From contig JAULAZ010000003.1 in the NCBI GenBank assembly GCA_032654705.1, positions 2,695,571-2,759,570 of the forward strand: DNA of 64,000 nt. The letters are read 5' to 3'. The notes under the pieces are model-generated. The model searched no databases and had not been told where the DNA came from. It saw nothing but the letters and a program-made list of their open reading frames with translations. The position numbers were made by a program, and so were the translations under genes. The DNA is from Chitinophagaceae bacterium (GTDB taxonomy: Bacteria; Bacteroidota; Bacteroidia; Chitinophagales; Chitinophagaceae). This document shows, piece by piece, positions 1,819-58,876 of the stretch. The first letter of the stretch is position 1; every line of letters starts with the position of its first letter.

Positions 1819-2034
1819 CTACCCTTTATGATTCTTCCGCCACCTGTAGGCAATAAAACCAACAATAGCAAATGGAGCAAAAGCGAGGTAGAGAATTCCG
1901 GAATTCAGGCCCTTGGCAGGTTTTTCACCCAATTGCTGGGCGGTTTTAGTACAAATGGAACACTGGGCGGAGGAATTGGTAGTGACTAATGAATAGTGAA
2001 TGGTGAACAGTAATATCAATCCCCACTTTTTCAT
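1819..2034 (-). CDS. Small secreted or membrane protein (hypothetical)
   Basis: I used the internal ATG (MKKWGLILLFTIHYSLV...), which gives a signal-like N-terminus and a C-terminal TM helix (ILYLAFAPFAIVGFIAY). The longer 99-aa form would overlap the GT4 gene end. Confidence 0.35.
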   Translation of the reverse strand: MKKWGLILLFTIHYSLVTTNSSAQCSICTKTAQQLGEKPAKGLNSGILYLAFAPFAIVGFIAYRWRKNHKG

Positions 2035-2063
2035 GTTTGCAAGATTTTTGCAAAGATAACGTT

Positions 2064-26952: not shown

Positions 26953-27417
26953 TTACATCACTTTTACATTACGGTTAAAGCTTTCATCCAAAGAAATAAA
27001 TGTTTCGGTACGTTCAATGCCTTTTATTTTCTGCAACTGGTCATGCAGCACAAATTTCAACTGCGAAATATCTTTACAAACAATTTCTGCAAACATGCTG
27101 TAATTGCCCGTGGTATAATTCAACCGTACAATCTCAGATATTTTCTGCAATTCTTTAGCCACGGAATCATACAAGGAACTTTCTTTCAGGTAAATCCCAA
27201 TAAAAGCAATAACATCATGCCCCATTTGCTTCAGATCTATCTTAAGCCTTGAACCTGTTACCACTCCTGCCTCCTGCAGTTTCTTAATACGAACATGAAT
27301 GGTGCCACCGGACACAAATAGTTTCTTTCCCAGATCAGCATAAGATATCTCTGCATTCTCCATCATGTGCTGGATAATCTGCAGATCCAATTTGTCAAGA
27401 TTTAATTTAGCAGGCAT
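26953..27417 (-). CDS. Lrp/AsnC family transcriptional regulator
   Basis: 154 aa with an N-terminal HTH (LDLQIIQHMMENAEISYADLGKKLFVSGGTIHVRIKKL) and a C-terminal RAM/AsnC_trans_reg domain. Confidence 0.9.
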   Translation of the reverse strand: MPAKLNLDKLDLQIIQHMMENAEISYADLGKKLFVSGGTIHVRIKKLQEAGVVTGSRLKIDLKQMGHDVIAFIGIYLKESSLYDSVAKELQKISEIVRLNYTTGNYSMFAEIVCKDISQLKFVLHDQLQKIKGIERTETFISLDESFNRNVKVM

Positions 27418-27507
27418 TTTGAATATGCTTTTTGAATATTTTCAAAATAATCAGCAAATATTTGAAAAATTTCTATAGTTTCAAAATAAGTGTTTGAAAA
27501 TTTTGAA
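27418..27507. promoter_or_regulatory. Array of TTTGAA/TTCAAA half-sites upstream of the Lrp gene (candidate operator region)
   Basis: TTTGAA occurs at 27418, 27431, 27461, 27493 and 27502. TTCAAA occurs at 27441 and 27480. The array includes the perfect 16-nt palindrome TTTGAATATTTTCAAA at 27431-27446. Confidence 0.4.
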
Positions 27508-27533
27508 CAAAACTGCTTACCCGCCTATATTTG
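27503..27533 (+). promoter_or_regulatory. Bacteroidota-type promoter (TTG -33 / TATATTTG -7)
   Basis: A TTG at 27503-27505 is followed 20 nt later by TATATTTG at 27526-27533. This matches the TTG-N(17-23)-TAnnTTTG consensus known for Bacteroidota sigma-A promoters. Confidence 0.45.
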
Positions 27534-27539
27534 GGCTAT

Positions 27540-27806
27540 CAAGTTCTTGATAATACTGTGGGGTGATGAAATGACGTAAGTCTGGCAGACATGCCCTCTT
27601 GTCTCGGGGGTGGGGAAAACAGAATAAACGTTGCATAACGCCGATCCGCCGACGGGCGGACCGACTGGGGTTGACCACCAGTAGGTTGAGAGTAGCACTC
27701 TCTATTCATTTGTGCAACAGCTAACTGCCCCGTGGAGGTTCGAACCCTTCCCCTACAGCTTGTATTGCTTTTTTTAAGCCCTCATATTCAAATGAGGGCT
27801 TTTTTA
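27540..27806 (+). ncRNA. Candidate structured RNA of undetermined class (tRNA-like T-arm, tmRNA-like 5' end), either stand-alone or a 5' leader
   Basis: No ORF is present. The segment is GC-enriched relative to its flanks. It has a promoter upstream and an intrinsic terminator at its end. Perfect hairpins lie at 27645-27660 and 27688-27702. A T-arm GGAGG-TTCGAAC-CCTTC lies at 27734-27750. A 7-bp closing helix pairs 27557-27563 with 27751-27757. Confidence 0.4.
27776..27806 (+). terminator. Rho-independent terminator
   Basis: aagccctcat-attcaa-atgagggctt followed by TTTTTATT. Confidence 0.7.
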
Positions 27807-27846
27807 TTCCGGGCTTTTCCGAAAAAAAATTTCCGAAATTTACATC

Positions 27847-28731
27847 ATGAAAAAAATACCACTACTCATTAGCCTTGTCGCCATTGGATTATTTACTCAT
27901 GCTCAAAAAGAAAAAATATATACTTCACTGGATGAGGCGCTGAAGCATTCTTCAGAAGTTTATATCCTTTCATTAAATAATCAAAAGCTGAAGGCTATTC
28001 CGGAAACTATTACACGGCTAACCAATCTTACCACCCTTAATGTGGCCGGCAACAAACTTACCTCTGTGCCTGAAAGCATTACCCGGATGGAAAATCTGAA
28101 AGAGCTAAACCTTAGTTTTAATAAGTTTAATTTCATACCAGAAACGGTTACCAGTATGCCCAACCTTACTGCACTGGATCTTAGCAATAATCATATTTCA
28201 TTTCTTCCCGAGTCAATTACCAAACTCATCAATCTCAAAAAGCTTTACCTGAATAATAACCTGCTAACCTCTCTTCCTGAATATTTTTCCAAAATGACCA
28301 GCCTTAATGAAATATATTTTTATGGCAACCTGCTGCGGTTTATCCCGGAAAGCATTTCCAATCTCAGCAAGCTGAATGAAATAGGGGTTGGTGGTAACTT
28401 GCTGACTTCGCTTCCTGAAAGTATGGACAAACTTGTTAACCTTAAATACCTTGCTTTGCCTTATAACCAGTTTACAACATTTCCGTCCTGCATTACCCAT
28501 CTTACATCACTTACCGTGCTGGACCTGAACGGAAACAAACTCGACTCACTACCAGAAAATATCAATAATCTAAAAGCGCTTACTGAATTATATCTTGAAT
28601 CAAATAAACTTACATCATTGCCCGAGTCTATAATAGAGTTGAGCCAGTTAACAATAATTAACCTGAAAAAGAATAGTTCTCTGAAGCTATCTCCTGCTGT
28701 AAAAAAATTTATTGAGAATAAAAAAATCTAA
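27847..28731 (+). CDS. Secreted leucine-rich repeat (LRR) protein
   Basis: 294 aa with a signal peptide followed by about 11 tandem 23-aa LRR units (LxxLxLxxNxLxSLPESIxxLxxL). Confidence 0.85.
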   Translation: MKKIPLLISLVAIGLFTHAQKEKIYTSLDEALKHSSEVYILSLNNQKLKAIPETITRLTNLTTLNVAGNKLTSVPESITRMENLKELNLSFNKFNFIPETVTSMPNLTALDLSNNHISFLPESITKLINLKKLYLNNNLLTSLPEYFSKMTSLNEIYFYGNLLRFIPESISNLSKLNEIGVGGNLLTSLPESMDKLVNLKYLALPYNQFTTFPSCITHLTSLTVLDLNGNKLDSLPENINNLKALTELYLESNKLTSLPESIIELSQLTIINLKKNSSLKLSPAVKKFIENKKI

Positions 28732-28823
28732 AATTTTCCTGTCAGGTAATAAGCAGGATATGCTACTTTACTATTCAGTAAAGGCTACGCAATTTTTTTT
28801 ACACATCCTTATCTTTGCCGGTC

Positions 28824-29525
28824 ATGGGTCAAAAAAAACTGGAACGGTTTGCTGAGCTGAACACTTTTTCTAATGTGCTCCAGTTTCCGAAAGACATGGC
28901 AGGCAATTGGAATGATTTTTTTAAAAACAATCACTCCATCATTCTTGAACTGGCCTGTGGCAAAGGAGAATATGCTGTTGGCCTGGGGCAATTATTTCCT
29001 TCCAAAAATTTTATTGGAATTGATTTAAAAGGAAACCGCATCTGGGTGGGGGCCAAAAAAGCATTACAAAATAATTTAATCAATGTAGCTTTTCTTCGAA
29101 CAGAAATAGACCAGGTAACGGAATACTTTGCCAAAGATGAAGTTGCTGAAATATGGATTACTTTTCCCGACCCGCAACTACGAAAATCAAAAGCCAAAAA
29201 GCGGCTTACGCATCCAAAATTTTTACGGCTGTATAAACAATTTTTAGCCCCCGGTGGTTTAATACACCTGAAAACCGATAGCCCGGATCTATACCGGTTT
29301 ACCAAACTGGTAATTGAGTTATATGGTTGTTATTTAAAAAAAGATTCAGATAATATTTATATAGAAGAATCTGTTGACGAAGAGTTGAAAATAAAAACTC
29401 ATTACGAATCATTGGATATTTCCGGAAGTAAAAAAATTCATTATCTCTGTTTTTCTTTGCCCGAAAACTTACCCGGCAAAGAAAAAGATGATGAACTAAA
29501 ACAGCTGCTTAAAGAAACTGACTGA
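28824..29525 (+). CDS. trmB: tRNA (guanine46-N7)-methyltransferase TrmB
   Basis: LELACGKGEY SAM-binding motif, and FPDPQLRKSKAKKRL, typical of TrmB. I used the ATG at 28824; the track start is a TTG at 28815. Confidence 0.85.
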   Translation: MGQKKLERFAELNTFSNVLQFPKDMAGNWNDFFKNNHSIILELACGKGEYAVGLGQLFPSKNFIGIDLKGNRIWVGAKKALQNNLINVAFLRTEIDQVTEYFAKDEVAEIWITFPDPQLRKSKAKKRLTHPKFLRLYKQFLAPGGLIHLKTDSPDLYRFTKLVIELYGCYLKKDSDNIYIEESVDEELKIKTHYESLDISGSKKIHYLCFSLPENLPGKEKDDELKQLLKETD

Positions 29526-29562
29526 TGGCAGGTGAGTCAAAAAATGAAACTATATTTATAGT

Positions 29563-29952
29563 ATGACCTCAAAGAAAAAATCATCTGAAAAAATAAAATC
29601 AATACGACCCTCCGGTAAAAGAGAAGAGAATTTTTTTGAACTGGTTTTTGAAGTAGCCCGGCAAATACCGAAGGGAAGAGTAACCTCTTATGGCGCTATT
29701 GCCGCCTGTCTTGGCGCCAAATCATCAGCCCGCATGGTAGGCTGGGCCATGAATGGTTGTCATCGTGTAAGACCGAAAGTGCCGGCACATCGTGTGGTGA
29801 ATCGTTTGGGTATTTTATCAGGCAAGCATCATTTTTCTCCGCCCGGTATGATGGAAAAATTATTAAAGAAAGAAGGCGTTAAGGTAAAGAACGACCAGGT
29901 AGTTGATTTTAAAAAACTCTTTTGGGATCCGGTTGAGGAAATGGGATTTTAA
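29563..29952 (+). CDS. MGMT-family DNA-binding protein lacking the acceptor cysteine (alkyltransferase-like, ATL/YbaZ type)
   Basis: 129 aa. It has the YGAIA helix-turn-helix region and VPAHRVVN where true MGMTs carry PCHRV (Cys replaced by Ala). Confidence 0.75.
   Translation: MTSKKKSSEKIKSIRPSGKREENFFELVFEVARQIPKGRVTSYGAIAACLGAKSSARMVGWAMNGCHRVRPKVPAHRVVNRLGILSGKHHFSPPGMMEKLLKKEGVKVKNDQVVDFKKLFWDPVEEMGF
29848..29952 (+). repeat. Direct repeat copy 1: the native 3' end of the ATL gene
   Basis: Encodes MMEKLLKKEGVKVKNDQVVDFKKLFWDPVEEMGF*. Homologous copies lie at 30907-30977, 33389-33491 and 34119-34161. Confidence 0.8.
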
Positions 29953-30024
29953 ACTTTACTATTTTCATTTGTTGTAGGTAAGGGTTATAAGAACGGTTAA
30001 TGAATTATTGATTAATTTTAAAAC

Positions 30025-30330
30025 ATGGAAACGCCCAAACCCAAACCTGTATTCAATCGCCGCATCTTCTGGGATGTAAATTTTGACAAATTAGATTATG
30101 ATGGCAAAGCCTCTTTTATCATCGAAAGGGTTTTTGAACGGGGCGATGTGGATGACATTCGCCAGTGCCGGAGATATTACGGGGATGAGAAAGTGACTGA
30201 AGTTTTACTAAATGCAAAATACTTACCTGAAAGAAGACTTCATTTGGCCGCTGCTGTTATTGATAAACCTGTTACCGAATTCAGATGCTACATCTTGAGA
30301 CAGTCGAACCCGGGACTTTTTCCGTATTAA
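30025..30330 (+). CDS. DUF6922-like small protein (putative antitoxin partner of the AbiEii-like gene)
   Basis: 101 aa. The IFWDVNFDKLDYDGKASFIIERVFERGDVDD... pattern is one I recall from small ORFs that precede Bacteroidota AbiEii-family genes. It overlaps the next ORF by 46 nt. Confidence 0.55.
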   Translation: METPKPKPVFNRRIFWDVNFDKLDYDGKASFIIERVFERGDVDDIRQCRRYYGDEKVTEVLLNAKYLPERRLHLAAAVIDKPVTEFRCYILRQSNPGLFPY

Positions 30331-30911
30331 AACGTTTGATGCGCCTGAAAGCGTTGCTGCCCTTTTCATTAGTGGGCGGCACTGCTTTATCATTACGGTA
30401 TGGCCATCGCACATCTGTTGATATTGATTTATTTTATGAAAATAAATTTGATCATGAGCCCATTGTAAAGGCCCTAAAGAAAGAATTCGGAAAAGGATAT
30501 GGCACAGAAAGCCGGTATTATCGCTGGGGGATATTCTGTTATCTCGATGGGGTGAAAGTGGATATTGTGCATCATCCTCACCCGTTAATTTGGGAAACTG
30601 AAGTAGTTGATGGTATCAGGATCTATGACGACAGGGACATTATTGCCATGAAGATAAATGCGATACTAGGCCGGGGAAAAAAGAAAGACTTCTGGGATTT
30701 GTATGAGTTGCTGCATCATTATTCATTAAAAGAGATAATTGCATTCCACGAACAAAAATTTCCTGAACAAAACTTGCTTATCACTATCCCACAGGCCATC
30801 ACTTATTTTGATGATGCGGATGAAAGCGAAGACCCCATCAGCCTGAAAGGACAAACCTGGGAAACCGTGAAAAAATTTATTCAGCAAAAAGTAAGTGATT
30901 TTTTACGCTGA
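30285..30911 (+). CDS. Nucleotidyltransferase AbiEii/AbiGii toxin-family protein
   Basis: 208 aa. It has the N-terminal LVGGTALSLRYGHRTSVDIDLF (GG...S.DIDLF NTase motif). Confidence 0.7.
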   Translation: MLHLETVEPGTFSVLKRLMRLKALLPFSLVGGTALSLRYGHRTSVDIDLFYENKFDHEPIVKALKKEFGKGYGTESRYYRWGIFCYLDGVKVDIVHHPHPLIWETEVVDGIRIYDDRDIIAMKINAILGRGKKKDFWDLYELLHHYSLKEIIAFHEQKFPEQNLLITIPQAITYFDDADESEDPISLKGQTWETVKKFIQQKVSDFLR

Positions 30912-30977
30912 CAAAATTTTTGCAGGCGGTAGTTGGGTTTAAAAAATTGGGGCCCGGTAGATGAATTTGGATTTTAA
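30907..30977 (+). repeat. Direct repeat copy 2: degenerate ATL 3'-end fragment (internal deletions and a frameshift)
   Basis: tgacaaaatttttgcag / gcggtagttgggtttaaaaaa / ccggtagatgaatttggattttaa aligns with the ATL tail. The last 24 nt differ from copy 1 at 4 positions by my count. Confidence 0.7.
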
Positions 30978-31089
30978 TTACTAAATGCCTCTTTCTTCCT
31001 TTCACCATATCTTTAAGTAATTAATAATTAACAGGCAGGAAGACAAGATAATAATTTATTCGCCGTTCTAATATGCCAGCAGACACTAT

Positions 31090-33327
31090 ATGAAAAAAAT
31101 CCTGATTATATTTTTTTGCTTTTATGCTTCCGTAAATACATCCGGGCAGCAAAATAACCCCCGCCCTAAAATTGGCCTTGCCTTAAGTGGTGGTGGCGCC
31201 AAGGGCCTGGCACATATCGGGATTTTAAAAGCTATCGATTCTGCCGGGTTAAAAATTGATTATATCACCGGCACCAGTATGGGCGCCGTTATCGGGTCGT
31301 TGTATGCTATTGGCTACTCCGCCAACCAGATTGAAGCCATGAGCCGGAAAATTGACTGGGATATATTATTGAGCAACCAATTATCCCTGCGTTCCTTATC
31401 CATGGAAGAAAAAGATGAATATGGGAAATATGCCATCGAACTTCCTTATATCAATAATAAACTGAAATTGCCCGGCGGTATTATTGATGGGCAGGAATTA
31501 AGGTTTAAGTTTTCTGAGTTGTACTATCCTGTACAACGAATCAAGGATTTCAACAAATTTTCTATCCCTTTTAAATGTATTGCTTCAGATATTTCCAACG
31601 GGCAGGCCATTGTCTTTGACAAAGGCGATATTGTTACAGCCGTTCGTGCCAGCATGACCATTCCTTCCTTATTTACACCCGTAGATTATAATGGTTACCG
31701 GCTGGTTGATGGAGGGCTGGTCAGAAATTTTCCGGTAACAGATGTTAAAGACATGGGCGCTGATATAGTAATTGGCAGCAGCGTAACCACCGGAACATCA
31801 CCCAAAGAAAGATTAAACTCCGCACCGGAAATATTATTGCAACTGGCCTTTTTTAGAGAGGCAGAAGATTATAAAAAAGAAGTGCCGCTTTGTGATATAT
31901 ATGTTTTCCAGCCTTTGCAGGGATATACGATGGGAAGTTTTAACAAGGCAGACAAGCTGATAGATATCGGACTGGAAGAGGGAAGAAAATTATTTCCAGT
32001 ATTCAAACACCTGGCCGATTCATTAAACCAGTTATACGGAACATTATCCTTAAAAACCGAACGGTTGCCTGCGCCTGATTCTGTTTTTATCAGTTCGTAT
32101 GAAATAATTGGCCTTGAAAAAACAAAGAAAGAATTTTTTTTACATGCCATGAATTTTCAAACTAACAAAACGTATGCAGAAGCAAGTCTTTCAAAATTGA
32201 TCCGCCGGGTTTTTGGTACACTTTATTACAGCAGTATTAATTATTCATTGGAACCACTGGCAGACGGTACAACAAAAATTATTTTTACAGTAAAAGAAAA
32301 TTCATCCACTTACGCTAAAGTGGGGTTGCATTATAATGCTTTCTCCGGAATCAGTATCATTACCAACCTCACCACCCGTGATTACCTGGCCCGTTATTCA
32401 AGAAGTATGGCTACTATCAATATCGGCGAAAACTTCCGGATCAAAGGCGAGCATCTCCAGTATTTTGCATTCAGAAAAAACATTGCCATTATACCTTCTG
32501 TGCAGCTCGAAAGCTTTAAAATAAATACCTATACAGGGTTTAGAAAAAGCGGGCAATACCGGCAGGTTTATTTTAATGGAGAATTAAAAGCACAATATTC
32601 CGGCAACAGAAATACTACTGCCGGCATCGGAACCCGCTATGAACGTATTGATTTTAAACCGCTGATTTTATCGAGCCTGGAAGCAAAAGGTAAAAATGAC
32701 TTCTTTACTTCCTTTGTATATTTTAATATGAATACCACTGATAAAATCTTCTATCCGCATAGAGGAATAAAGTTAAATGCTGAACTTGGCCTTTTATTTA
32801 ACCAGCGACCCAATGTCACTTTCTTTTCCAATGGAATACCAGTAACCAATATTGATTCATTCGGGGTTAATTATGATAATTACCAGCGGGCCTTCATCAA
32901 AGCAGAATCTTATTCGCCTTTTTCAAAGCAGCTTACTTTTTATACCTTATTCCAGATGGGTATAAATTTTAATTACAAACAAAACCTCGTCAATAATTTT
33001 CAGATAGGAGGATTGACCAATACGGTAAGGAACCAGGTTCTTTTCGCCGGGCTGGATGAAACTACGGTAAGCACTCCCAGTGTTACTTCGCTTTTGTTGG
33101 GATTAAATTTACAACTGTCAAAAAATACTTACCTCATGGCCAGGACCAATGCCGCAGTCATCAACTTTATCAGCGGCGATGAAAAGATACATTTAAAAAA
33201 CTGGCTTACCGGCCATGCCCTTACGTTTGCTTACAATACACTTATTGGCCCGTTGGAATTCAGCCTGGAATATAGCGAACAATCAAAAAAAGTAATTACT
33301 TATGTAAATTTTGGAATTCCGTTTTAA
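31090..33327 (+). CDS. Patatin-like phospholipase fused to POTRA and an Omp85 beta-barrel (PlpD-like, type Vd)
   Basis: 745 aa with a signal peptide. The patatin motifs are SGGGAKG, GTSMG and DGG. The C-terminal ~300 aa is beta-strand rich and ends in F, the aromatic terminal residue typical of outer-membrane beta-barrels. Confidence 0.85.
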   Translation: MKKILIIFFCFYASVNTSGQQNNPRPKIGLALSGGGAKGLAHIGILKAIDSAGLKIDYITGTSMGAVIGSLYAIGYSANQIEAMSRKIDWDILLSNQLSLRSLSMEEKDEYGKYAIELPYINNKLKLPGGIIDGQELRFKFSELYYPVQRIKDFNKFSIPFKCIASDISNGQAIVFDKGDIVTAVRASMTIPSLFTPVDYNGYRLVDGGLVRNFPVTDVKDMGADIVIGSSVTTGTSPKERLNSAPEILLQLAFFREAEDYKKEVPLCDIYVFQPLQGYTMGSFNKADKLIDIGLEEGRKLFPVFKHLADSLNQLYGTLSLKTERLPAPDSVFISSYEIIGLEKTKKEFFLHAMNFQTNKTYAEASLSKLIRRVFGTLYYSSINYSLEPLADGTTKIIFTVKENSSTYAKVGLHYNAFSGISIITNLTTRDYLARYSRSMATINIGENFRIKGEHLQYFAFRKNIAIIPSVQLESFKINTYTGFRKSGQYRQVYFNGELKAQYSGNRNTTAGIGTRYERIDFKPLILSSLEAKGKNDFFTSFVYFNMNTTDKIFYPHRGIKLNAELGLLFNQRPNVTFFSNGIPVTNIDSFGVNYDNYQRAFIKAESYSPFSKQLTFYTLFQMGINFNYKQNLVNNFQIGGLTNTVRNQVLFAGLDETTVSTPSVTSLLLGLNLQLSKNTYLMARTNAAVINFISGDEKIHLKNWLTGHALTFAYNTLIGPLEFSLEYSEQSKKVITYVNFGIPF

Positions 33328-33355
33328 ATAATAATAGTAAATATGTCATTGGTAT

Positions 33356-33382
33356 TGTGTGCCTGCCTGCGGTAGGCACACA
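33356..33382. other. 9-bp GC-rich hairpin abutting repeat copy 3
   Basis: tgtgtgcct-gcctgcggt-aggcacaca. No T-run follows, so it is not a classic terminator. Confidence 0.5.
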
Positions 33383-33388
33383 ACACTG

Positions 33389-33491
33389 CGTGATGTTTTT
33401 TTTGGAACACCTGCCAAGGGAGAAAAAAAACGACCGGGTAGTTGATTTTAAAAAACCGTTTGGGTATCCTGTAGATGAATTGGGATTTTAA
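33389..33491 (+). pseudogene. Direct repeat copy 3: orphan ATL 3'-end fragment, still open for 32 codons
   Basis: Translates as MFFLEHLPREKKNDRVVDFKKPFGYPVDELGF*. The last 63 nt align without gaps to 29890-29952, with 9 mismatches by my count. Confidence 0.8.
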
Positions 33492-33503
33492 ATTTCCTTT
33501 CTA

Positions 33504-33995
33504 TTACAGTTGAAACTGATATCCAATATTAACTCCTATCCAAGATCTATATGAAGCTCTATTAATTCTGACCGAGATGTCAAAACCACTGCCAGATTTG
33601 TTTTTTATTAAATAACCCAATTCTCCACCATAAGTAAATCTTGAAGGACCATTCCAATAACCCGTATAAACAGCCAATCCTGCATCACCTTGTGCATATA
33701 ATCCTTCTGCAATAAAATGCCTGTACCCAATTCTTGGTAAAAAGAGTCCGCTATTATTATTAGCATCCTGAACCTTCCATCCTGTTATTCCAACAGAAAA
33801 AAGCACACTCCCATCTTTACTGACACTATAATAGTCTGTTGCATAAATACCCCACCCGGTTTTGTATCCTTCTTTAAAAATACCAAGGGGCATTTCAACT
33901 CCTCCATGAATTTTTATAAAATTCATTTTTTTCTGTGTTAAGCCCTTAACAGAAAAAAGGAAACACAATCCAAGGAGAAATAATTTGTATTTCAT
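33504..33995 (-). CDS. Small outer-membrane beta-barrel protein (hypothetical)
   Basis: 163 aa with a signal peptide, an alternating hydrophobic/aromatic strand pattern rich in G/Y, and a C-terminal YQFQL. Confidence 0.55.
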   Translation of the reverse strand: MKYKLFLLGLCFLFSVKGLTQKKMNFIKIHGGVEMPLGIFKEGYKTGWGIYATDYYSVSKDGSVLFSVGITGWKVQDANNNSGLFLPRIGYRHFIAEGLYAQGDAGLAVYTGYWNGPSRFTYGGELGYLIKNKSGSGFDISVRINRASYRSWIGVNIGYQFQL

Positions 33996-34087
33996 ATAAT
34001 TTTATTAAGAACTGAAATTACAGTAAATTACTTCTGCCCAAAAAATAATTCTTTTGCCGCTGTTGGTCTTTCCGAATCTTTAAACAG

Positions 34088-34118
34088 CCGTTGATTTCTA
34101 TGTTATAGAAATCAACGG
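34088..34118. terminator. 13-bp hairpin downstream of the cox-associated operon, abutting repeat copy 4
   Basis: ccgttgatttcta-tgtta-tagaaatcaacgg. Confidence 0.5.
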
Positions 34119-34161
34119 TGTGATGCTTTTTCGAAATACCTGCAAGAACAAGAATTCATAA
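34119..34161 (+). repeat. Direct repeat copy 4: 5' stub of the ATL-tail repeat
   Basis: gtgatgctttttcgaaatacctgcaagaacaagaa aligns with gtgatgttttttttggaacacctgccaagggagaa of copy 3. It begins at the same TGATG boundary. Confidence 0.5.
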
Positions 34162-34176
34162 AAAATCTTAAGCCTT

Positions 34177-34761
34177 CTAATGATAATACGGGCTAATCAT
34201 CCAGTACACCAGCACACCCGTTACCGCCACATAAAACCAGATGGGCCAGGTAATGCGTACTAATTTTTTGTGTTTGTCAAATTCTCCCGTCAATGCCCTG
34301 TAAGCGGAGAATAAAATAAAAGGAAGAATAATACCCGCTAGCGGAATATGAGTGCCCAGTAAAATATAATAGATCATCCGGCTGCTGCCAACGGCTGCTT
34401 TTTCAACATCAGTAACGATGCCATCGTGGTTCACATCCCCAAACCTTGTTTCACCGGCAAATAAATGATGACAGATATAGCTTATTAAAAAAAGAACAGA
34501 CAGAAACATGGCCGTCAGCATGATGTTCTTATGCAGTATATAGTTTTTTGTTTTTACAGCAATCAATGCAATAATCAATAATATGGCTACGCAGGAATTT
34601 ATAAATGCATTGGCAGTGGCAAACAAATGCACATCAAACCCCAGGTTCGCATTCCACTTTACCCGGCTCAGCAGCATCACCGCGGCAAATACAATGGCAG
34701 AAAAACTAAAGATGATGATCCTTGCTTTCTTATCATTTTTTTTCCAGGCAGCCGATAGCAT
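34177..34761 (-). CDS. DUF420 membrane protein (cytochrome oxidase-associated)
   Basis: 194 aa with 4-5 TM helices. Its position after SCO in a cox operon is the usual context for this family as I recall it. Confidence 0.65.
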   Translation of the reverse strand: MLSAAWKKNDKKARIIIFSFSAIVFAAVMLLSRVKWNANLGFDVHLFATANAFINSCVAILLIIALIAVKTKNYILHKNIMLTAMFLSVLFLISYICHHLFAGETRFGDVNHDGIVTDVEKAAVGSSRMIYYILLGTHIPLAGIILPFILFSAYRALTGEFDKHKKLVRITWPIWFYVAVTGVLVYWMISPYYH

Positions 34762-34763
34762 GT

Positions 34764-35573
34764 TTATGAATTTTTTCTAAGGAAATAAAAAAATAATCCC
34801 ACGCCGAATATGGTAATTAAAAGTACCACGGCAATCAGTTGCAGTTTACCGGCAAAAAAACTTTTTGCATTCGGATCTTTTTCCATCGTAAGTAACACCA
34901 GGTCTTTTGATAATTGCGACAGCGAGGCCGCCTCAAGGCCATGATAATATCCCCGCACATGCCGGGTGCTGTCAATAAGTACAAAATGATCGGTGTGCAT
35001 AAAGTTTGTATCAATGCCCTGCCCGTCATCCACCGGAATTTTCATTTCATGGATGATAAGATCATAGATCATTTTCTTATCGCCGGTAAGCAGCCACCAT
35101 TTTTCCGGGTTAACCTGGAATCGGTCGGCCCAGTTTTTTAATTGCTTCACCGAATCCCTTTCCGGGTCAATGCTGAAAGAAAGAAAGTGAACCAGTTTAT
35201 TGGTTTTATCACCAACCCGTTCACCATTATTAATGGACTCTGCCAGCTTCTTCATATTTCTTGTAAGCCCCGGACAGATTGTAGGACAACGGGTAAAAAA
35301 GAAATCTGCAATTACAATTTTTCCTTTCAGGCTATCCCATGAAACAGTTTTATTTTCCTGGTTGGTTAGTTTGAAATTGGCCAGTTGATGCCAGATGGTA
35401 TCTGAAACTCTTTTGCCCTTTTTAGTTATTGTAACAACAGAGTCCGGCAGATAATGCTTCGGCATAGCCACCGCATTTTCACTTTTTCCTTTCACAATGA
35501 AATAGGAAACAAGCGGCAGCAATATGGCCAGCATCACCGCATATAAAGCTTTTTTGTTCACAATAATTCTCAA
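34764..35573 (-). CDS. SCO1/SenC copper chaperone
   Basis: FFFTRCPTICP (a CxxxC motif) in a thioredoxin-like fold, with N- and C-terminal TM segments. The start is a TTG at 35573; an alternative ATG lies at 35534. Confidence 0.85.
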   Translation of the reverse strand: MRIIVNKKALYAVMLAILLPLVSYFIVKGKSENAVAMPKHYLPDSVVTITKKGKRVSDTIWHQLANFKLTNQENKTVSWDSLKGKIVIADFFFTRCPTICPGLTRNMKKLAESINNGERVGDKTNKLVHFLSFSIDPERDSVKQLKNWADRFQVNPEKWWLLTGDKKMIYDLIIHEMKIPVDDGQGIDTNFMHTDHFVLIDSTRHVRGYYHGLEAASLSQLSKDLVLLTMEKDPNAKSFFAGKLQLIAVVLLITIFGVGLFFYFLRKNS

Positions 35574-35576
35574 TTA

Positions 35577-35612
35577 AAAACCATCCCGACGTTCACAGTC
35601 GGGATGGTTTTG
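35577..35612 (-). terminator. Intercistronic hairpin/terminator after the subunit IV gene
   Basis: aaaaccatcccgac-gttcaca-gtcgggatggtttt. Confidence 0.55.
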
Positions 35613-35639
35613 TGATATGAATACTATTAAAAGAACTGA

Positions 35640-36086
35640 TTATTTTCCCCCGGGGTTTTCTACCGGTGTAATGAATTTAGCCTGGTTTTCCGGCAATGAT
35701 CTTTCTTTAAAATGCAAATCATATTTGTTCCGGAGATTCTTATATGAATTTCCATCGGTAATAAAAGCAATGATAAACCAGATAAACAGCGCCAGCGGCA
35801 CTACAATGGTCATGATCAGGTTTCTTATTTCATCACCCAGGTGCATAAAAACAGAAACAATGAAATATGCCTTGGCCAGTGAAAGAACAATGATCACTCC
35901 TTTTATAAGCAGTCGCCTCAGGTCATCCGGAAGGCTCAGCGCATACAATAAAAGACCAAGGCCCAGTTCAATCATCGTAATAATAAGTAATACCCAGAAA
36001 ATTTTCCAGATACGTTTTACATTACCCGCCGCAGGGGCATGATGAAAAGAAATTTCAGATGATACCGCTTGATGTTCCATACTCAT
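35640..36086 (-). CDS. Cytochrome c oxidase subunit IV family protein (bacterial aa3/caa3 type)
   Basis: Small protein with 3 TM helices directly after the subunit III genes. I chose the ATG at 36086; the track TTG is at 36095. Confidence 0.6.
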   Translation of the reverse strand: MSMEHQAVSSEISFHHAPAAGNVKRIWKIFWVLLIITMIELGLGLLLYALSLPDDLRRLLIKGVIIVLSLAKAYFIVSVFMHLGDEIRNLIMTIVVPLALFIWFIIAFITDGNSYKNLRNKYDLHFKERSLPENQAKFITPVENPGGK

Positions 36087-55719: not shown

Positions 55720-56487
55720 ATGGAAGTACATGCACACACTCATACGCCAAGAAAAAAATGGACCCATTATTTTTTTGAATTCTTTATGCTTTTCCTGGCT
55801 GTGACACTTGGTTTTTTTATGGAAAACCAGCGGGAGCATATCGTTGAAAAAAAGAGAGCCCACCAGTTTTTGCAAAGTATGTTGCTGGATGTACGAACGA
55901 ATATGAAAAACCTGGACTCGCTGATGCAACAAGACCGTGGGATCATTGTCAATCATGATTTGCTGGTAAATTGGTTATTGGCCGACAGCTCAACAATAGA
56001 CAGGGCAGCTTTTTCGAAAAAAATGGGAGCCGTTTGGGTAAGAAATTTTCTGGTGCGGAAAGAAACGTATGAGCAAATGAAATCCTCCGGTTCGCTGCGT
56101 TATGTAGGTGATATTGAATTCCTGAAAAAAATGATGGACTATGAACGCATCACCAATTTTGCGCAATACCGGAACCAGGAGTTTGAAAAAAAATATTATA
56201 CAGAGTTATTTATTCCTGCTCTTTACAGAAGCTATGATCTCACCTGCCAGATCAACCTGGACACAAGCAATCATTCCGATCCATTCAAAATGGAAAAGGT
56301 AGCTCGCCACCATGATGTGCTGAGCGGAAATGATGCAGCCATTTTTCGTCATGATATGGGTGCTGCTTTGACATTGCGATTGGAAAGATTGAGAAGAAGT
56401 CTCGATGCGTTCAGGAATGCAAGAACGGCATGTGTAGAAATGGAGCAATTAATAATGAAACAATTGGGGGGAAAAATTAAAGATTAA
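55720..56487 (+). CDS. Paralog 1 of an uncharacterised HxHxH-N-terminus single-TM protein family
   Basis: 255 aa, starting MEVHAHTHTPRKKWTHYFFEFFMLFLAVTLGFFMENQREH. It is the most divergent member and lacks the C-terminal EYHL. Confidence 0.7.
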   Translation: MEVHAHTHTPRKKWTHYFFEFFMLFLAVTLGFFMENQREHIVEKKRAHQFLQSMLLDVRTNMKNLDSLMQQDRGIIVNHDLLVNWLLADSSTIDRAAFSKKMGAVWVRNFLVRKETYEQMKSSGSLRYVGDIEFLKKMMDYERITNFAQYRNQEFEKKYYTELFIPALYRSYDLTCQINLDTSNHSDPFKMEKVARHHDVLSGNDAAIFRHDMGAALTLRLERLRRSLDAFRNARTACVEMEQLIMKQLGGKIKD

Positions 56488-56492
56488 CTTAT

Positions 56493-57236
56493 ATGGAAGT
56501 ACATGCACACACACATACGGAAAGGAAAAAATGGACCCATTATTTCTGGGAGTTTTTAATGCTGTTCCTTGCTGTGTTCTGCGGGTTTTTGGCAGAGAAC
56601 ATAAGAGAGCATTCCGTGGAAAGACACAGGGAAAAAGAATACATGGTTGCGCTGATCAAAGACTTACAAAGTGACATTACCGGGTTAAGTGATGCAGCTG
56701 CTACAAAATTGAAAAGAATCGCAATGGCCGATTCAATCAATCATCTTTTTGAAAAAGGAGATTTCAAAAACTCTTCGGCTGAAATTTATTTTTTAGGAGC
56801 CCACCTGGGATTCCGGTCCTATTTTAATCCGAACGAAGGCACGATACAGCAATTGAAAAATGCAGGAGGCCTGCGGCTGATAAAAAAAAGAGATGTGGTG
56901 GACAGCCTGCAGCGCTACACAAGCTTCATGCAGGAGTTTCTAAAGTTGCAGGAGCTGGAAGAAAACCAGCTGGAAGAATATATAAAAACAATGAGCAATG
57001 TTTTTGATGCCACTGTTTTGAACCAAATGCTTCCGGGCAAGGGAAAACCAGGTGTTACCAAGTCTGCTGTCAATCTCCCCCTAATGACAGATGATCCGCA
57101 AAAAATTAATGACCTGAACATGAATATCCTTCTCATAAAAGCTAACCGGATGAGTCAACTGGAATATTTTTTGGTGTTAAACAATTATTCCACTTCCCTG
57201 ATTCGTCAGATTAAAGAAGAGTATCACCTGAAATAA
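56493..57236 (+). CDS. Paralog 2 of the same family
   Basis: 247 aa, starting MEVHAHTHTERKKWTHYFWEFLMLFLAV. It has the mid motif QQLKNAGGLRLIKKRDVVDS and the C-terminus EEYHLK. It starts 5 nt after the stop of paralog 1. Confidence 0.75.
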   Translation: MEVHAHTHTERKKWTHYFWEFLMLFLAVFCGFLAENIREHSVERHREKEYMVALIKDLQSDITGLSDAAATKLKRIAMADSINHLFEKGDFKNSSAEIYFLGAHLGFRSYFNPNEGTIQQLKNAGGLRLIKKRDVVDSLQRYTSFMQEFLKLQELEENQLEEYIKTMSNVFDATVLNQMLPGKGKPGVTKSAVNLPLMTDDPQKINDLNMNILLIKANRMSQLEYFLVLNNYSTSLIRQIKEEYHLK

Positions 57237-57330
57237 AAAACCATGATAAATGCTGTATGCTAAATTTTGAATTCCCTGTCAATTTGAAATTCATATAACA
57301 TTCAGCAATTAAAATTCAAAATAATAAATT

Positions 57331-58068
57331 ATGGAAGTACATGCACACACCCATACCGCCCGAAAAAGATGGACCCACTATTTCTGGGAATTTTTTATGC
57401 TGTTCCTTGCCATTACCCTTGGATTTTTTATGGAAAACCAACGGGAGCATTATGTAGAAAGAGAACGGGAAAAGCAATACATCAATTCTATGATCAATGA
57501 CCTGAAAACGGATACCGCTTTCTTTTCATCCGCCATTGCTTCAAACAGTGCCAACCAGCTCAGAATGGATTCACTGAAAATGCTGCTGAAAAATTATACC
57601 TGGGGTCATCCCACTGTTGATATCTATTACCTGGCACGAAGGATCACCTACCTGAGTGAACGGATGCAATACAATAACCGGACATTTGAGCAACTGAAAA
57701 ATTCTGGCGGGCTGCGACTTATCCGCCGCCATAATATCCTGGATTCAATCAGCCAGTATTACGAATCGCTGAGATGGATGGATGTAGAGATTGAACAAAA
57801 AGCCCAGTTGATCAGTAACCTTGTTTTTGCCAATGAAGAAATGTTTGATGCCTGGACTATGATTGCTATTTCTGAATCGGGGTTTAACCGACCTTCAGAA
57901 ACACCTCCGCTGCTTCAGAATGACAAGCTGGTGTTGAACAGGTATATTTACCGTTTGGGGTTTTTTAAAGCCGTAGACAATTCTATACTATCCAAAACAA
58001 AAGAAGAATTTCTGCCCAATGCCATTCGGCTGATCGGGTTATTAAGATCGGAATATCATCTGAATTGA
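57331..58068 (+). CDS. Paralog 3 of the same family
   Basis: 245 aa, starting MEVHAHTHTARKRWTHYFWEFFMLFLAI. It has the mid motif EQLKNSGGLRLIRRHNILDS and the C-terminus SEYHLN. Confidence 0.75.
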   Translation: MEVHAHTHTARKRWTHYFWEFFMLFLAITLGFFMENQREHYVEREREKQYINSMINDLKTDTAFFSSAIASNSANQLRMDSLKMLLKNYTWGHPTVDIYYLARRITYLSERMQYNNRTFEQLKNSGGLRLIRRHNILDSISQYYESLRWMDVEIEQKAQLISNLVFANEEMFDAWTMIAISESGFNRPSETPPLLQNDKLVLNRYIYRLGFFKAVDNSILSKTKEEFLPNAIRLIGLLRSEYHLN

Positions 58069-58138
58069 GAGGAGCAATAAGCTGTTAGCTGCGGGTCACA
58101 AGAAAAAAATAACTAAAAATCAATAACAAGCTACCAAT

Positions 58139-58876
58139 ATGGAAGTACATGCACACACTCACACCGAAAGAAAAAAATGGCACCATTACTTTTGGGAATT
58201 TTTTATGCTGTTCCTGGCGGTTACGCTTGGGTTTTTTGTAGAAAACCAACGGGAGCATCTGGTGGAGCATCGCAGAGAAAAAGAATCCATGGTTTCTCTT
58301 GTAAAAGACCTTGAACTGGACACTGCACAATTGTCAAGGATCAGAAACTACCGTCTCGATAAGTTACATACAATAGATTCATTAATCATGTTCTTTGTGG
58401 ACCATCCCGGTGGAGTAGTCCCTGCTTATGGATATACATTAGCGAAAAAACTTTTCGGACATGCCGCTTTTTTCCAAAATAGCGGCACACTCGACCAGTT
58501 AAAAAATGCAGGTGGGCTTCGATTAATCCGGCACAGAAATGCAGTTGACTCCATTGAGTCCTATGACCAGCAGGTAAAACGTATTGCTTTGCGGGATATT
58601 TATGAAACTAATTTTTTTATTGACAATAACAAACTTCTTGAGCAATTATTTGATGGTAGGGCCTTGTTAAAAATTTATGCAGATACCACTTATTATAAGA
58701 AGCCTGTATCTCCGTCGGCTGCAATAAAACTGAATGAACAATATGCAGGCGAATACCTGAATAGCCTGAGAACTTTTCAATTTTTGGTGCGGCAGAATAT
58801 GGAACTTCAAGCAACGGTTAAGGCAAAAGCTGCCCGCCTGATCACATTGATCAAAAAAGAATATCACCTGGATTAA
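58139..58876 (+). CDS. Paralog 4 of the same family
   Basis: 245 aa, starting MEVHAHTHTERKKWHHYFWEFFMLFLAV. It has the mid motif DQLKNAGGLRLIRHRNAVDS and the C-terminus KEYHLD. Confidence 0.75.
   Translation: MEVHAHTHTERKKWHHYFWEFFMLFLAVTLGFFVENQREHLVEHRREKESMVSLVKDLELDTAQLSRIRNYRLDKLHTIDSLIMFFVDHPGGVVPAYGYTLAKKLFGHAAFFQNSGTLDQLKNAGGLRLIRHRNAVDSIESYDQQVKRIALRDIYETNFFIDNNKLLEQLFDGRALLKIYADTTYYKKPVSPSAAIKLNEQYAGEYLNSLRTFQFLVRQNMELQATVKAKAARLITLIKKEYHLD

What the first reader, a model, noticed from the sequence alone, without database searches (positions are those of the whole stretch)
29848..34161. Four same-strand copies of the ATL gene's 3' end delimit three unrelated cargo modules: a cassette-accretion site with no recombinase in view
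The last ~35 codons of the ATL/MGMT-like CDS (29848-29952, MMEKLLKKEGVKVKNDQVVDFKKLFWDPVEEMGF*) recur three more times downstream in the same orientation. Copy 2 (30907-30977) keeps two blocks, ggtagttgggtttaaaaaa and ccggtagatgaatttggattttaa, and has internal deletions and a frameshift. Copy 3 (33389-33491) is still an open 32-codon frame, MFFLEHLPREKKNDRVVDFKKPFGYPVDELGF*. Its last 63 nt align without gaps to the gene copy with 9 mismatches by my count. Copy 4 (34119-34161) is a 5' stub, gtgatgctttttcgaaatacctgcaagaacaagaa. All four begin at the same point (TGATG, or TGAC in copy 2), which argues for a defined crossover site rather than random duplication. The copies partition the region into three modules. 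Module (i) is the DUF6922-like/AbiEii-like pair. Module (ii) is the 745-aa patatin-POTRA-Omp85 gene. Module (iii) is a small beta-barrel gene on the opposite strand. Immediately after copy 4 the conserved DUF420-SCO-cox operon resumes. Copies 3 and 4 are each directly preceded by a strong hairpin (33356-33382 and 34088-34118). Copies 2 and 3 share gtagatgaatt, where the gene copy has gttgaggaaat. This suggests the tails came from different donors. The layout is what repeated site-specific integration into the 3' end of a gene leaves behind: each incoming element supplies a replacement gene end and pushes older ends downstream. Here, however, the units are only 0.6-2.4 kb and there is no integrase. 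That resembles cassette capture with the recombinase acting in trans more than it resembles a classical genomic island. I do not know of this being described for ATL genes.
Basis: partly seen in the sequence, partly recalled or inferred. Interest (0 to 1): 0.85.

Follow-up and report, generated by a model that had tools for sequence, protein, structure and literature searches.

The report
Gene cassettes stacked behind ATL gene tails
Between two conserved genes of a Chitinophagaceae bacterium, three unrelated gene modules sit one behind another, each led by a leftover copy of the last ~20-35 codons of the neighbouring DNA-repair-like (ATL) gene; related genomes carry the same modules singly or in other combinations, which makes this a real, small-scale gene-stacking hotspot probably built by ordinary homologous recombination.

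Summary
The core observation holds. Copies 1-3 of the ATL tail are real (0 of 2000 shuffles reach the scores). They occur nowhere else in the 64 kb window.

Copy 4 is not detectably ATL-like on its own. Synteny rescues it: it ends in TTCTAA at the ancestral ATL stop, overlapping the DUF420 stop.

Many are empty (ATL and DUF420 stops overlap). Single-cassette arrays exist for each window module: L166 [toxin-antitoxin (TA)], L162 [patatin], L170 [barrel]. Other stacks also occur (L167, L164, L169).

Each relic is the former working gene end of such a simpler arrangement.

Against a site-specific, trans-recombinase mechanism:
- Relic left boundaries are sharp but differ (-67, -90, at least -105 nt from the stop).
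- Only the right boundary, the stop codon, is constant.
- No recombinase motif lies within 10 kb of ATL in any locus.
- No phage or plasmid carries the tail.
- Cargo GC matches the flanks.

Best reading (0.55): one-sided or unequal homologous recombination between haplotypes with different genes behind ATL. A short ATL 3' fragment is carried along with each module.

It is a new variant of gene-end accretion. The mechanism is unproven.

The parts
29563..29952 (+). ATL (alkyltransferase-like) gene. Its last 67-105 nt (29848/29886-29952) are 'copy 1', the working gene end, which is linked to the toxin-antitoxin (TA) module behind it.
   Evidence: PF01035 hit with E 3e-20. The motif is PAHRV, not PCHRV. 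The TrmB-ATL arrangement converging on DUF420-SCO-cox is conserved in most of about 160 Chitinophagaceae loci.
29953..30911 (+). Cassette 1: a spacer plus the DUF6922/AbiEii toxin-antitoxin pair.
   Evidence: Pfam and PADLOC hits. The spacer is orthologous to the spacer behind the tail in L166 and L167 (score 60, 0/1000). The same pair sits alone between ATL and DUF420 in L166.
30928..30977 (+). Copy 2: a decayed ATL tail relic made of two blocks with a 5-nt deletion. It is the former working gene end of an ATL-patatin arrangement.
   Evidence: Scores 47 and 54 against copies 1 and 3, both 0/2000. The sequence behind it (30978-31089) is orthologous to the spacer from the ATL stop to patatin in L162 and L164 (score 80, 0/1000).
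30978..33327 (+). Cassette 2: a spacer plus the 745-aa patatin-POTRA-Omp85 gene.
   Evidence: Pfam hits. Orthologues of 85% and 83% identity lie directly behind ATL in L164 and L162. Orthologues of 72% and 67% lie elsewhere without ATL tails.
33352..33424 (+). A hairpin (33352-33386) followed by a 'head', GTGATG-T8-GGAACACCTGCCAAG. This is non-ATL sequence directly 5' of copy 3.
   Evidence: The fold has z = -4.1. The head matches 34119-34146 (0-5 of 2000-3000 shuffles). It resembles the L082 head more weakly (44/3000).
33425..33495 (+). Copy 3: an ATL tail relic (85% over 71 nt, frame still open). It is the former working gene end of an arrangement in which ATL converges on the barrel gene.
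   Evidence: In L170 and L171 the working ATL tail ends 13 nt from the barrel gene's stop. Here copy 3 ends 12 nt from it.
33504..33995 (-). Cassette 3: a 163-aa outer-membrane 8-stranded beta-barrel gene.
   Evidence: No Pfam, NCBIfam or PADLOC hit. The AlphaFold model has pLDDT 87.5 with 8 strands. Foldseek finds OmpX, Ail and OmpW.
34088..34180 (+). A hairpin (34088-34118) and then copy 4 (34119-34180): a head and a heavily deleted remnant of the original ATL tail, ending in the ancestral stop (TTCTAA, 34175-34180) that overlaps the DUF420 stop.
   Evidence: The stem is a perfect 14 bp. The end is identical to the L003 gene end TTCTAATGATAATAC, and the L082 relic sits in the same place. There is no significant similarity to copy 1.
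34177..35573 (-). DUF420 and SCO, the first genes of the conserved cox cluster. They form the fixed right border of the array.
   Evidence: Pfam hits. Synteny in relatives.

Best explanation
The interval between ATL and DUF420 is a small flexible islet. In one genus-level Chitinophagaceae clade, gene modules are stacked in it by recombination inside the last ~20-40 codons of ATL.

Shown:
- The ancestral state is ATL and DUF420 converging with overlapping stops.
- Each window module also exists as the only module at this site in a relative.
- Each internal ATL fragment is the former working gene end that preceded the module behind it.
- The most distal fragment sits at the ancestral stop.

Inferred mechanism:
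1. DNA from a related haplotype that carries a different gene behind ATL recombines with the resident chromosome.
2. One crossover uses a long homologous anchor, either TrmB-ATL on the left or DUF420-SCO-cox on the right.
3. The other join takes one of two forms. It can be an unequal homologous crossover between a working tail and a displaced relic. Or it can be an illegitimate join inside the tail, as in homology-facilitated illegitimate recombination or a Campbell-type single crossover of a circularised fragment.
4. Homology between haplotypes ends at the ATL stop codon, so the duplicated piece always ends there.
5. The other join can fall anywhere, so its left end varies.

ATL stays intact throughout. 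Displaced tails decay or are trimmed. Recombination between tail copies can also delete modules. Only short repeats survive, because long ones would quickly recombine the cargo out. No dedicated recombinase is required.
For: Family-wide pattern:
- The empty state has overlapping stops in L001, L003, L006 and many other loci. Elsewhere in the family unrelated genes are inserted at this junction without any tail relic.

Arrays in the close clade (TrmB 81-85%, ATL 82-90% identical to the window; L169 and L170 were not in that comparison):
- L166 [TA]
- L167 [348 aa-MBOAT][TA], with an intact in-frame 90-nt internal tail
- L162 [patatin]
- L164 [patatin], then a relic, then [139 aa]
- L169 [139 aa, truncated][TA][YoeB/YefM][PepSY]
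- L170 [barrel]
- L082, a 190-nt mini-insert plus a relic

Boundaries and spacers:
- Spacers behind a tail are orthologous within a cassette type and unrelated between types, so the right edge of every repeat is the stop codon.
- Left edges are sharp and different: -67, -90 and at least -105.

Signs of exchange between tail copies:
- The L167 internal tail is 90% identical to the TA-linked tail of L166 and 83% to its own gene tail.
- The window copies are mosaic. Copies 1 and 3 differ at 1 of the first 28 nt but at 8 of the next 35. Copies 2 and 3 share the right block. All three share GGTAGTTG.

No sign of a mobile element:
- No recombinase-like ORF lies within 10 kb of ATL in 170 loci covering 1.9 Mb.
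- No phage, plasmid or viral contig carries the tail.
- Cargo GC equals that of the flanks.
- There are no tRNA genes in the window, no Rfam match reaching a family's gathering score in 27000-36000, and no attC-type core pairs.

Homology-facilitated illegitimate recombination is an established RecA-dependent route (PMC6382021, citing de Vries & Wackernagel 2002).
Against: - Tail duplication is confined to one clade, although insertions at this junction occur across the family. That could point to a clade-specific factor such as a recombinase.
- Three relics (copy 3, copy 4 and the L082 relic) share the same ATL boundary (equivalent to about 29883-29886). They also share a similar non-ATL 'head' after a hairpin. 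This looks like a recurrent element end. I explain it by common descent from an L082-like founder, but that is inference.
- All repeats are 125 nt or shorter. Random fragment ends would not predict this without the added assumption that longer repeats are unstable.
- The donor junctions are unknown, so microhomology could not be tested.
- Natural competence in these bacteria is not established here.
- The recombinase screen was a motif regex and covered only +/-10 kb.
- Global tail identity by genome or by cargo shows no signal.
Confidence: 0.55

Rival explanations
1. Cassette capture by a site-specific recombinase encoded elsewhere in the genome. This would resemble an integron, Xer/dif modules or ICE/CIME accretion. 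Small circles of [ATL tail + cargo] would integrate at a core site in the ATL tail and push older tails downstream.
For: - The layout is compact: single genes or pairs, each with a tail on its left, and ATL is always restored.
- Modules reappear in different orders and combinations in relatives.
- Copy 3, copy 4 and the L082 relic share a junction: hairpin, then GTRATG plus a T-run, then ATL from about 29883.
- Tail duplication is clade-specific.
- Toxin-antitoxin cargo is typical of cassette arrays.
Against: - Sharp left boundaries differ between events: -67, -90 and at least -105 nt.
- The sequence behind patatin's stop differs in L162, L164 and the window. One cassette type therefore has no constant right end.
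- The TA module in L169 has no tail at all.
- There is no recombinase motif within 10 kb in 170 loci.
- There are no attC-type cores.
- No phage, plasmid or viral carrier of the tail was found.
- Nucleotide identity between the window and L166 does not step up at the tail, as a recently moved cassette would show. It rises only inside the TA genes.
Confidence: 0.17
2. One founding duplication plus a safe harbour. An ancestor acquired a short insert that duplicated the ATL tail, a state like L082. The gap between the tail and its relic then became the only harmless intergenic spot. Genes landed there by illegitimate recombination, and unequal crossing-over between tail and relic stacked them.
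For: - L082 shows exactly such an 'empty' state.
- It explains why copy 3, copy 4 and the L082 relic share a boundary and a head.
- It explains the window order as patatin-haplotype relic crossing over with barrel-haplotype tail.
- It needs no special enzyme.
Against: - The relics in L164 and L167 start further upstream (at least -105 and -90) with clear ATL sequence and no head. At least two or three independent duplications are therefore needed anyway.
- No shared spacer remnant lies behind the stop codons of different cassettes.
- The L082 spacer shows no homology to any cassette.
- This rival overlaps largely with the best explanation. It differs only in how the duplications first arose.
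Confidence: 0.15
3. Remains of classical integrase-bearing islands or prophages that targeted the ATL 3' end and later lost their integrase and most other genes.
For: Integration into a gene's 3' end with a replacement end, followed by tandem accretion of decayed elements, is well documented (PMC5704250; bioRxiv 10.1101/2020.12.28.424599).
Against: - No integrase, integrase fragment or phage gene appears in any array of about ten array-bearing loci or in the 170 loci overall.
- The modules are single ordinary chromosomal genes. Their orthologues lie elsewhere in more distant relatives.
- Cargo GC equals that of the flanks.
- There is no fixed core.
Confidence: 0.05

Closest known systems
Tandem accretion of integrative elements and their decayed derivatives (ICE / IME / CIME) at the 3' end of a gene, for example ICESt1-type elements (reviewed in PMC5704250)
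   Same: - The target is the 3' end of a conserved gene, and the gene end is restored.
- Older att-bearing ends are pushed downstream.
- Elements that lack their own recombinase sit in tandem.
- Relatives are polymorphic.
   Different: - No integrase was found in the 64 kb window or within 10 kb of ATL in any related locus, and no transfer genes appear in any array.
- The units are single ordinary genes of 0.5-2.4 kb.
- The repeats are 50-125 nt of diverged coding sequence with variable left ends, not a short identical core.
Tycheposon islands of Prochlorococcus, where partial tRNA copies separate successive integrations (bioRxiv 10.1101/2020.12.28.424599)
   Same: Arrays in which a partial copy of the target gene separates neighbouring cargo units. 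The authors interpret them as successive integrations that push older units inward.
   Different: - The target there is a tRNA gene.
- Those elements carry tyrosine recombinases, and degenerate integrases are found in the islands.
- Here the target is a protein-coding gene end and no recombinase or remnant was found.
Integron cassette arrays (from my own knowledge of the system)
   Same: Compact units of one or two genes, toxin-antitoxin cargo, a repeated element between units, and stacking at one site.
   Different: - There is no intI next to the array.
- The repeated element is a gene tail, not an attC hairpin.
- No RYYYAAC...GTTRRRY pairs are present.
- One cassette is inverted, and each module has its own spacer or promoter region.
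Homology-facilitated illegitimate recombination and Campbell-type single-crossover insertion (PMC6382021 and the papers it cites: de Vries & Wackernagel 2002; Prudhomme 2002; Meier & Wackernagel 2003)
   Same: One homologous anchor plus one non-homologous or short-homology join, RecA-dependent, with no dedicated recombinase. It can add foreign genes next to the anchor and duplicate part of it.
   Different: It is known from laboratory transformation experiments. A natural, repeatedly used site with stacked modules delimited by hitch-hiking gene ends has, to my knowledge, not been described. Microhomology at the joins could not be checked here.

Membership tests
Integrase-mediated genomic island / ICE-IME-CIME accretion | A tyrosine or serine recombinase gene in at least one element at the site | tested here: not met
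   A motif screen of all ORFs of at least 180 aa in 170 loci (1.9 Mb, +/-10 kb around ATL) and in the window found only SCO false positives. The Pfam labels of called genes in L162-L170 show none. The screen is crude and local.
Integrase-mediated genomic island / ICE-IME-CIME accretion | Direct repeats that share one fixed core (crossover) position | tested here: not met
   Homology ends sharply at -67 (copy 3), -90 (L167) and at least -105 nt (L164) from the stop.
Integrase-mediated genomic island / ICE-IME-CIME accretion | Insertion in the 3' end of a conserved gene with the gene end restored, and empty sites in relatives | tested here: met
   ATL is intact in all arrays. Empty sites occur in L001, L003, L006 and others.
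Integron | An intI gene and attI next to the array | tested here: not met
   Upstream lie TrmB, an LRR protein and an AsnC-type regulator. No recombinase motif was found.
Integron | An attC site (imperfect hairpin with RYYYAAC / GTTRRRY cores) at the 3' end of each cassette | tested here: not met
   No core pair occurs in 29901-34200 on either strand. The two strong hairpins are perfect stems, and one lies 5' of its gene. No attC covariance model was available.
Xer-dependent modules (IMEX, pdif modules) | 28-bp dif-like sites (11-6-11) flanking each module | not tested
   I had no dif consensus for this lineage. No obvious 11-6-11 dyad was seen by eye in the tails.
REP / MITE-type dispersed repeat | Many copies dispersed in the genome, unrelated to a gene | tested here: not met
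   The blocks occur only at the three tail positions in 64 kb. The profile search finds relics only behind ATL.
Homology-facilitated illegitimate / unequal homologous recombination product | The repeat ends where donor and recipient homology ends, and the other end is variable | tested here: met
   The right edge is the stop codon in all cassette types. Left edges vary.
Homology-facilitated illegitimate / unequal homologous recombination product | Microhomology of 3-10 bp at the illegitimate join, and RecA dependence | not testable with these tools
ATL (alkyltransferase-like) proteins | An MGMT-type DNA-binding domain with the active-site cysteine replaced | tested here: met
   PF01035 hit with E 3e-20. 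The motif is PAHRV instead of PCHRV.

The most novel reading that the evidence does not exclude
A dedicated recombination system encoded elsewhere in these genomes uses the 3' end of the ATL gene as its attachment site. It would capture ordinary single chromosomal genes as tail-led cassettes. This would be an integron-like platform whose 'attC' is a protein-coding gene end, or a long-duplication integrase analogous to CRISPR repeat duplication. The recurrent junction (hairpin, GTGATG, T-run, then ATL from about 29883) would be its footprint.
Probability: 0.15. Interest if true: 0.85.

Novelty: new variant of a known kind. Interest (0 to 1): 0.6.

Why it matters
It gives an unusually readable record of how a flexible islet grows gene by gene. 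Each displaced gene end marks one event, and relatives preserve the intermediate states: empty, single, double and triple.

If the homology-only reading is right, modular 'cassette arrays' can arise without any integrase or transposase. That bears on how recombinase-free arrays of defence and accessory genes are interpreted, and on the habit of inferring mobile elements from repeated gene ends.

If a trans-acting recombinase is involved instead, it would be a new cassette-capture system in Bacteroidota.

Tried and rejected
- Tandem duplication of [tail + DUF420 3' end]. The spacers behind the tails show no similarity to the DUF420 3' flank.
- Duplication extending past the stop codon. A shared ACATGTCTTT between the 139-aa and patatin spacers is not significant (65-80 of 1000).
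- The L082 mini-insert as a deleted barrel cassette. No homology was found.
- A head in front of copy 2 (GTGATTTTTT at 30893). Not significant.
- The head of copy 3 or copy 4 as diverged ATL sequence. At chance level against the gene. It remains unexplained.
- A dispersed repeat. The tail blocks occur only at the three tail positions in 64 kb. Head-derived patterns find nothing in the 81 loci then held and no further head-like unit in the window.
- Tail relics in about 160 other loci. Protein HMM, blastn-short and nhmmer searches found only the window and L082, plus the tandem ATL paralogue in L078.
- Carriers of the tail. There were 0 hits in viral contigs, plasmids and phages.
- attC cores, Rfam and tRNA searches, and a compositional anomaly were all negative.
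- A global test of whether tails resemble each other more within a genome or within a cargo type. It gave no signal (0.74, 0.73 and 0.74). Those claims therefore rest on specific sites and on spacer orthology only.
- A sharp identity step at the cassette edge between the window and L166. None was found. The high identity lies inside the TA genes.


Full report
**What is there.** The region reads as follows:
- TrmB 28815-29525(+)
- ATL 29563-29952(+)
- DUF6922 30025-30330(+) and AbiEii 30285-30911(+)
- patatin-POTRA-Omp85 31090-33327(+)
- a 163-aa gene 33504-33995(-)
- DUF420 34177-34761(-), SCO 34764-35573(-), then the cox genes

ATL carries PAHRV in place of the methyltransferase PCHRV. The 163-aa protein matches no family in three libraries. 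Its model has a signal helix plus eight strands (pLDDT 87.5) and resembles OmpX, Ail and OmpW.

**The repeats.**
- Copies 1, 2 and 3 of the ATL tail are real. Local scores are 90, 47 and 54 against shuffles of about 17-18 +/- 3, with none of 2000 shuffles reaching them.
- Their two conserved blocks occur three times in 64 kb and nowhere else.
- ATL homology of copy 3 ends abruptly at 33425 (equivalent to 29886). Further upstream, identity is 2-4 of 10. Copy 2 starts at 30928.
- Copy 4 is not similar to copy 1 (602 of 2000 shuffles do as well). It does match the 29 nt in front of copy 3's ATL homology (0-5 of 2000-3000). In both places this 'head' (GTGATG, a T-run, GRAAYACCTGC.AAG) follows a strong hairpin.

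**The family-wide background.** I fetched about 160 loci around ATL orthologues from Chitinophagaceae genomes and metagenomes.
- The ancestral layout is TrmB-ATL converging on DUF420-SCO-cox.
- In many loci, including the fairly close L001, L003 and L006, the ATL and DUF420 stop codons overlap. These are empty sites.
- Many other loci carry 0.5-10 kb of unrelated genes at this junction.
- None of those carries an ATL tail relic by protein profile, blastn-short or nhmmer. The only exceptions are the window and L082, plus a tandem ATL paralogue in L078.

**The close clade.** I followed the cargo proteins to their nearest homologues and the contigs that encode them. This uncovered a group of relatives about as distant from the window as each other (TrmB 81-85%, ATL 82-90%, DUF420 87-92% identity). 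Their ATL-DUF420 interval is modular:

| Locus | Content between ATL and DUF420 |
|---|---|
| L166 | [toxin-antitoxin (TA)] |
| L167 | [348 aa-MBOAT], an intact in-frame 90-nt ATL tail, then [TA] |
| L084 | the same 348-aa module behind the same ISELGF tail as L167 |
| L162 | [patatin] |
| L164 | [patatin], an ATL tail relic, then [139-aa membrane protein] |
| L083, L004 | [139 aa] directly behind ATL |
| L169 | [139 aa, truncated][TA][YoeB/YefM][PepSY_TM] |
| L170, L171 | [barrel] |
| L082 | a 190-nt insert: a new tail, about 105 nt with a hairpin and head, then the old tail abutting DUF420 |

(L169 and L170/L171 were not in the identity comparison.)

More distant orthologues of patatin (72% and 67%), of the TA pair (74%) and of the barrel (53%) lie at unrelated loci without ATL tails.

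**What each window relic is.**
- Copy 2 with the 112 nt behind it is orthologous to the working ATL tail plus spacer in front of patatin in L162 and L164 (score 80, 0/1000).
- Copy 3 ends 12 nt from the barrel gene's stop. The working tail does the same in L170, at 13 nt.
- Copy 4 ends ...TTCTAA|TGATAATACGGG. This is the gene end of L003 and the position of the L082 relic, overlapping the DUF420 stop.
- Copy 1 with its spacer is orthologous to the tail plus spacer in front of the TA pair in L166, and to the internal tail of L167 (score 60, 0/1000).

So the window is L166 + L162 + L170 stacked in that order on the original tail. A Logan contig from another data set repeats the TrmB-to-patatin part exactly. 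This speaks against a misassembly.

**Boundaries.**
- The right edge of every tail copy is the stop codon, give or take up to 4 nt. Behind it, sequence is cassette-specific.
- The left edges are sharp but differ: -67 nt (copy 3), exactly -90 nt (L167), at least -105 nt (L164), about -50 nt (copy 2), and only 8-12 nt in several 'mini relics' next to DUF420.
- The sequence behind patatin's stop differs in all three genomes that carry it.
- The TA module in L169 has no tail.
- This is not what one crossover core would give.

**Signs of exchange between tails.**
- The L167 internal tail is closer to the TA-linked tail of L166 (81 of 90) than to its own gene tail (75 of 90).
- In the window, copies 1 and 3 differ at 1 of the first 28 positions but at 8 of the next 35.
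- Copies 2 and 3 share the right block.
- All three window copies share GGTAGTTG, which the 15 relatives' tails aligned with them lack.
- Copies 2 and 3 are closer to copy 1 than to any of 80 orthologous tails.
- A global identity test by genome or by cargo shows nothing. These points are therefore indicative only.

**No mobile-element signature.**
- No recombinase motif lies within 10 kb of ATL in 170 loci or in the window. This is a crude regex screen.
- Nothing recombinase-like appears among the Pfam-labelled neighbours.
- There are no tRNA genes in the window and no Rfam match reaching a family's gathering score in 27000-36000.
- There are no attC-type cores.
- Cargo GC equals that of the flanks.
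- No viral contig, plasmid or phage carries the tail.
- Identity between the window and L166 does not step up at the tail. It rises only inside the TA genes, which are mosaic.

**Mechanism (inference).** A repeat has a right end at the point where haplotypes stop being homologous, and a left end that varies by event. That is the expected product of one long homologous anchor plus a second join inside the ATL tail. The second join could be any of three kinds:
- an unequal crossover between a working tail and a relic;
- an illegitimate join (homology-facilitated illegitimate recombination; PMC6382021 and the papers it cites);
- a single crossover of a circularised fragment.

The window's distal half fits unequal crossing-over between two haplotypes, each derived from an L082-like founder: [patatin-hairpin-head-relic] crossing over with [tail-barrel-hairpin-head-relic]. 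This would explain why copy 3, copy 4 and the L082 relic share a boundary and a head. The relics of L164 and L167 need separate events. I put 0.55 on this homology-driven family of mechanisms.

The main rival is a recombinase acting in trans (0.17). It is favoured by the clade restriction of tail duplication and by the recurrent hairpin-head junction. It is disfavoured by the variable boundaries and the negative searches.

**Comparison with what is known.** The layout works like tandem accretion at a gene's 3' end (ICE/IME/CIME, PMC5704250) and like the partial-tRNA arrays of tycheposon islands (bioRxiv 10.1101/2020.12.28.424599). It fails their defining features, which are an integrase and a fixed core. 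It also fails the integron features tested. I therefore file it as a new variant of gene-end accretion.

**Caveats.**
- Most relatives are metagenome contigs.
- I saw only +/-10 kb of each locus.
- The rest of the genomes could not be searched.
- The head motif remains unexplained.

Noticed in passing
window 55720-58876: Four tandem paralogous genes of about 245-255 aa, all starting MEVHAHTHT.RKKWTHYF.EF.MLFLA. This is a local gene family expansion of unknown function.
   Followed up: no
window 29526-29562; L162 7250-7441, L164 1833-2024, L167 2423-2614: Close relatives have a 63-aa DUF5522 gene overlapping the end of TrmB, just upstream of ATL. The window has only 37 nt there, so the gene has been lost. 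L166 has in addition an 1113-aa ORF inserted between DUF5522 and ATL (L166 3869-7210). The left side of ATL is therefore also variable.
   Followed up: partly
window 30216-30800 vs L166 and L167: The toxin-antitoxin genes are mosaic. AbiEii is 93-98% identical in nucleotides to L166, while the tail and spacer are 70-83% identical. Against L167, the DUF6922 part is 90-100% identical but mid-AbiEii only 60-73%. This points to recent recombination inside the TA genes, independent of the cassette edges.
   Followed up: partly
window 33389-33418 and 34119-34146; L082 10498-10530: A shared 'head' (GYGTRATG, a T-run of 5-8, GRAA.A.C) follows a hairpin directly in front of three ATL relics. It is not detectably ATL-derived. 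It could be a terminator retained from a founder insert, or an element end.
   Followed up: partly
L078 10001-10746: Flavitalea sp. BT771 has two tandem ATL paralogues, the second only 45% identical to the window's ATL. This is a whole-gene duplication at the same locus.
   Followed up: no
L169 6672-8119: A second toxin-antitoxin pair (YoeB/YefM) and a PepSY_TM gene sit at the same ATL-DUF420 site on the opposite strand. The islet collects TA systems.
   Followed up: no
L170 3923-4282: A gene of the 23S rRNA intervening-sequence protein family (PF05635) is inserted inside the cox cluster, between the UbiA-family gene and COX3. The window lacks it.
   Followed up: no
window 35577-35611: A perfect 14-bp hairpin lies between SCO and the next cox gene. 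It overlaps a weak Rfam hit (RF02901, 29.6 bits, far below the 97-bit gathering score) and is probably just a terminator.
   Followed up: no
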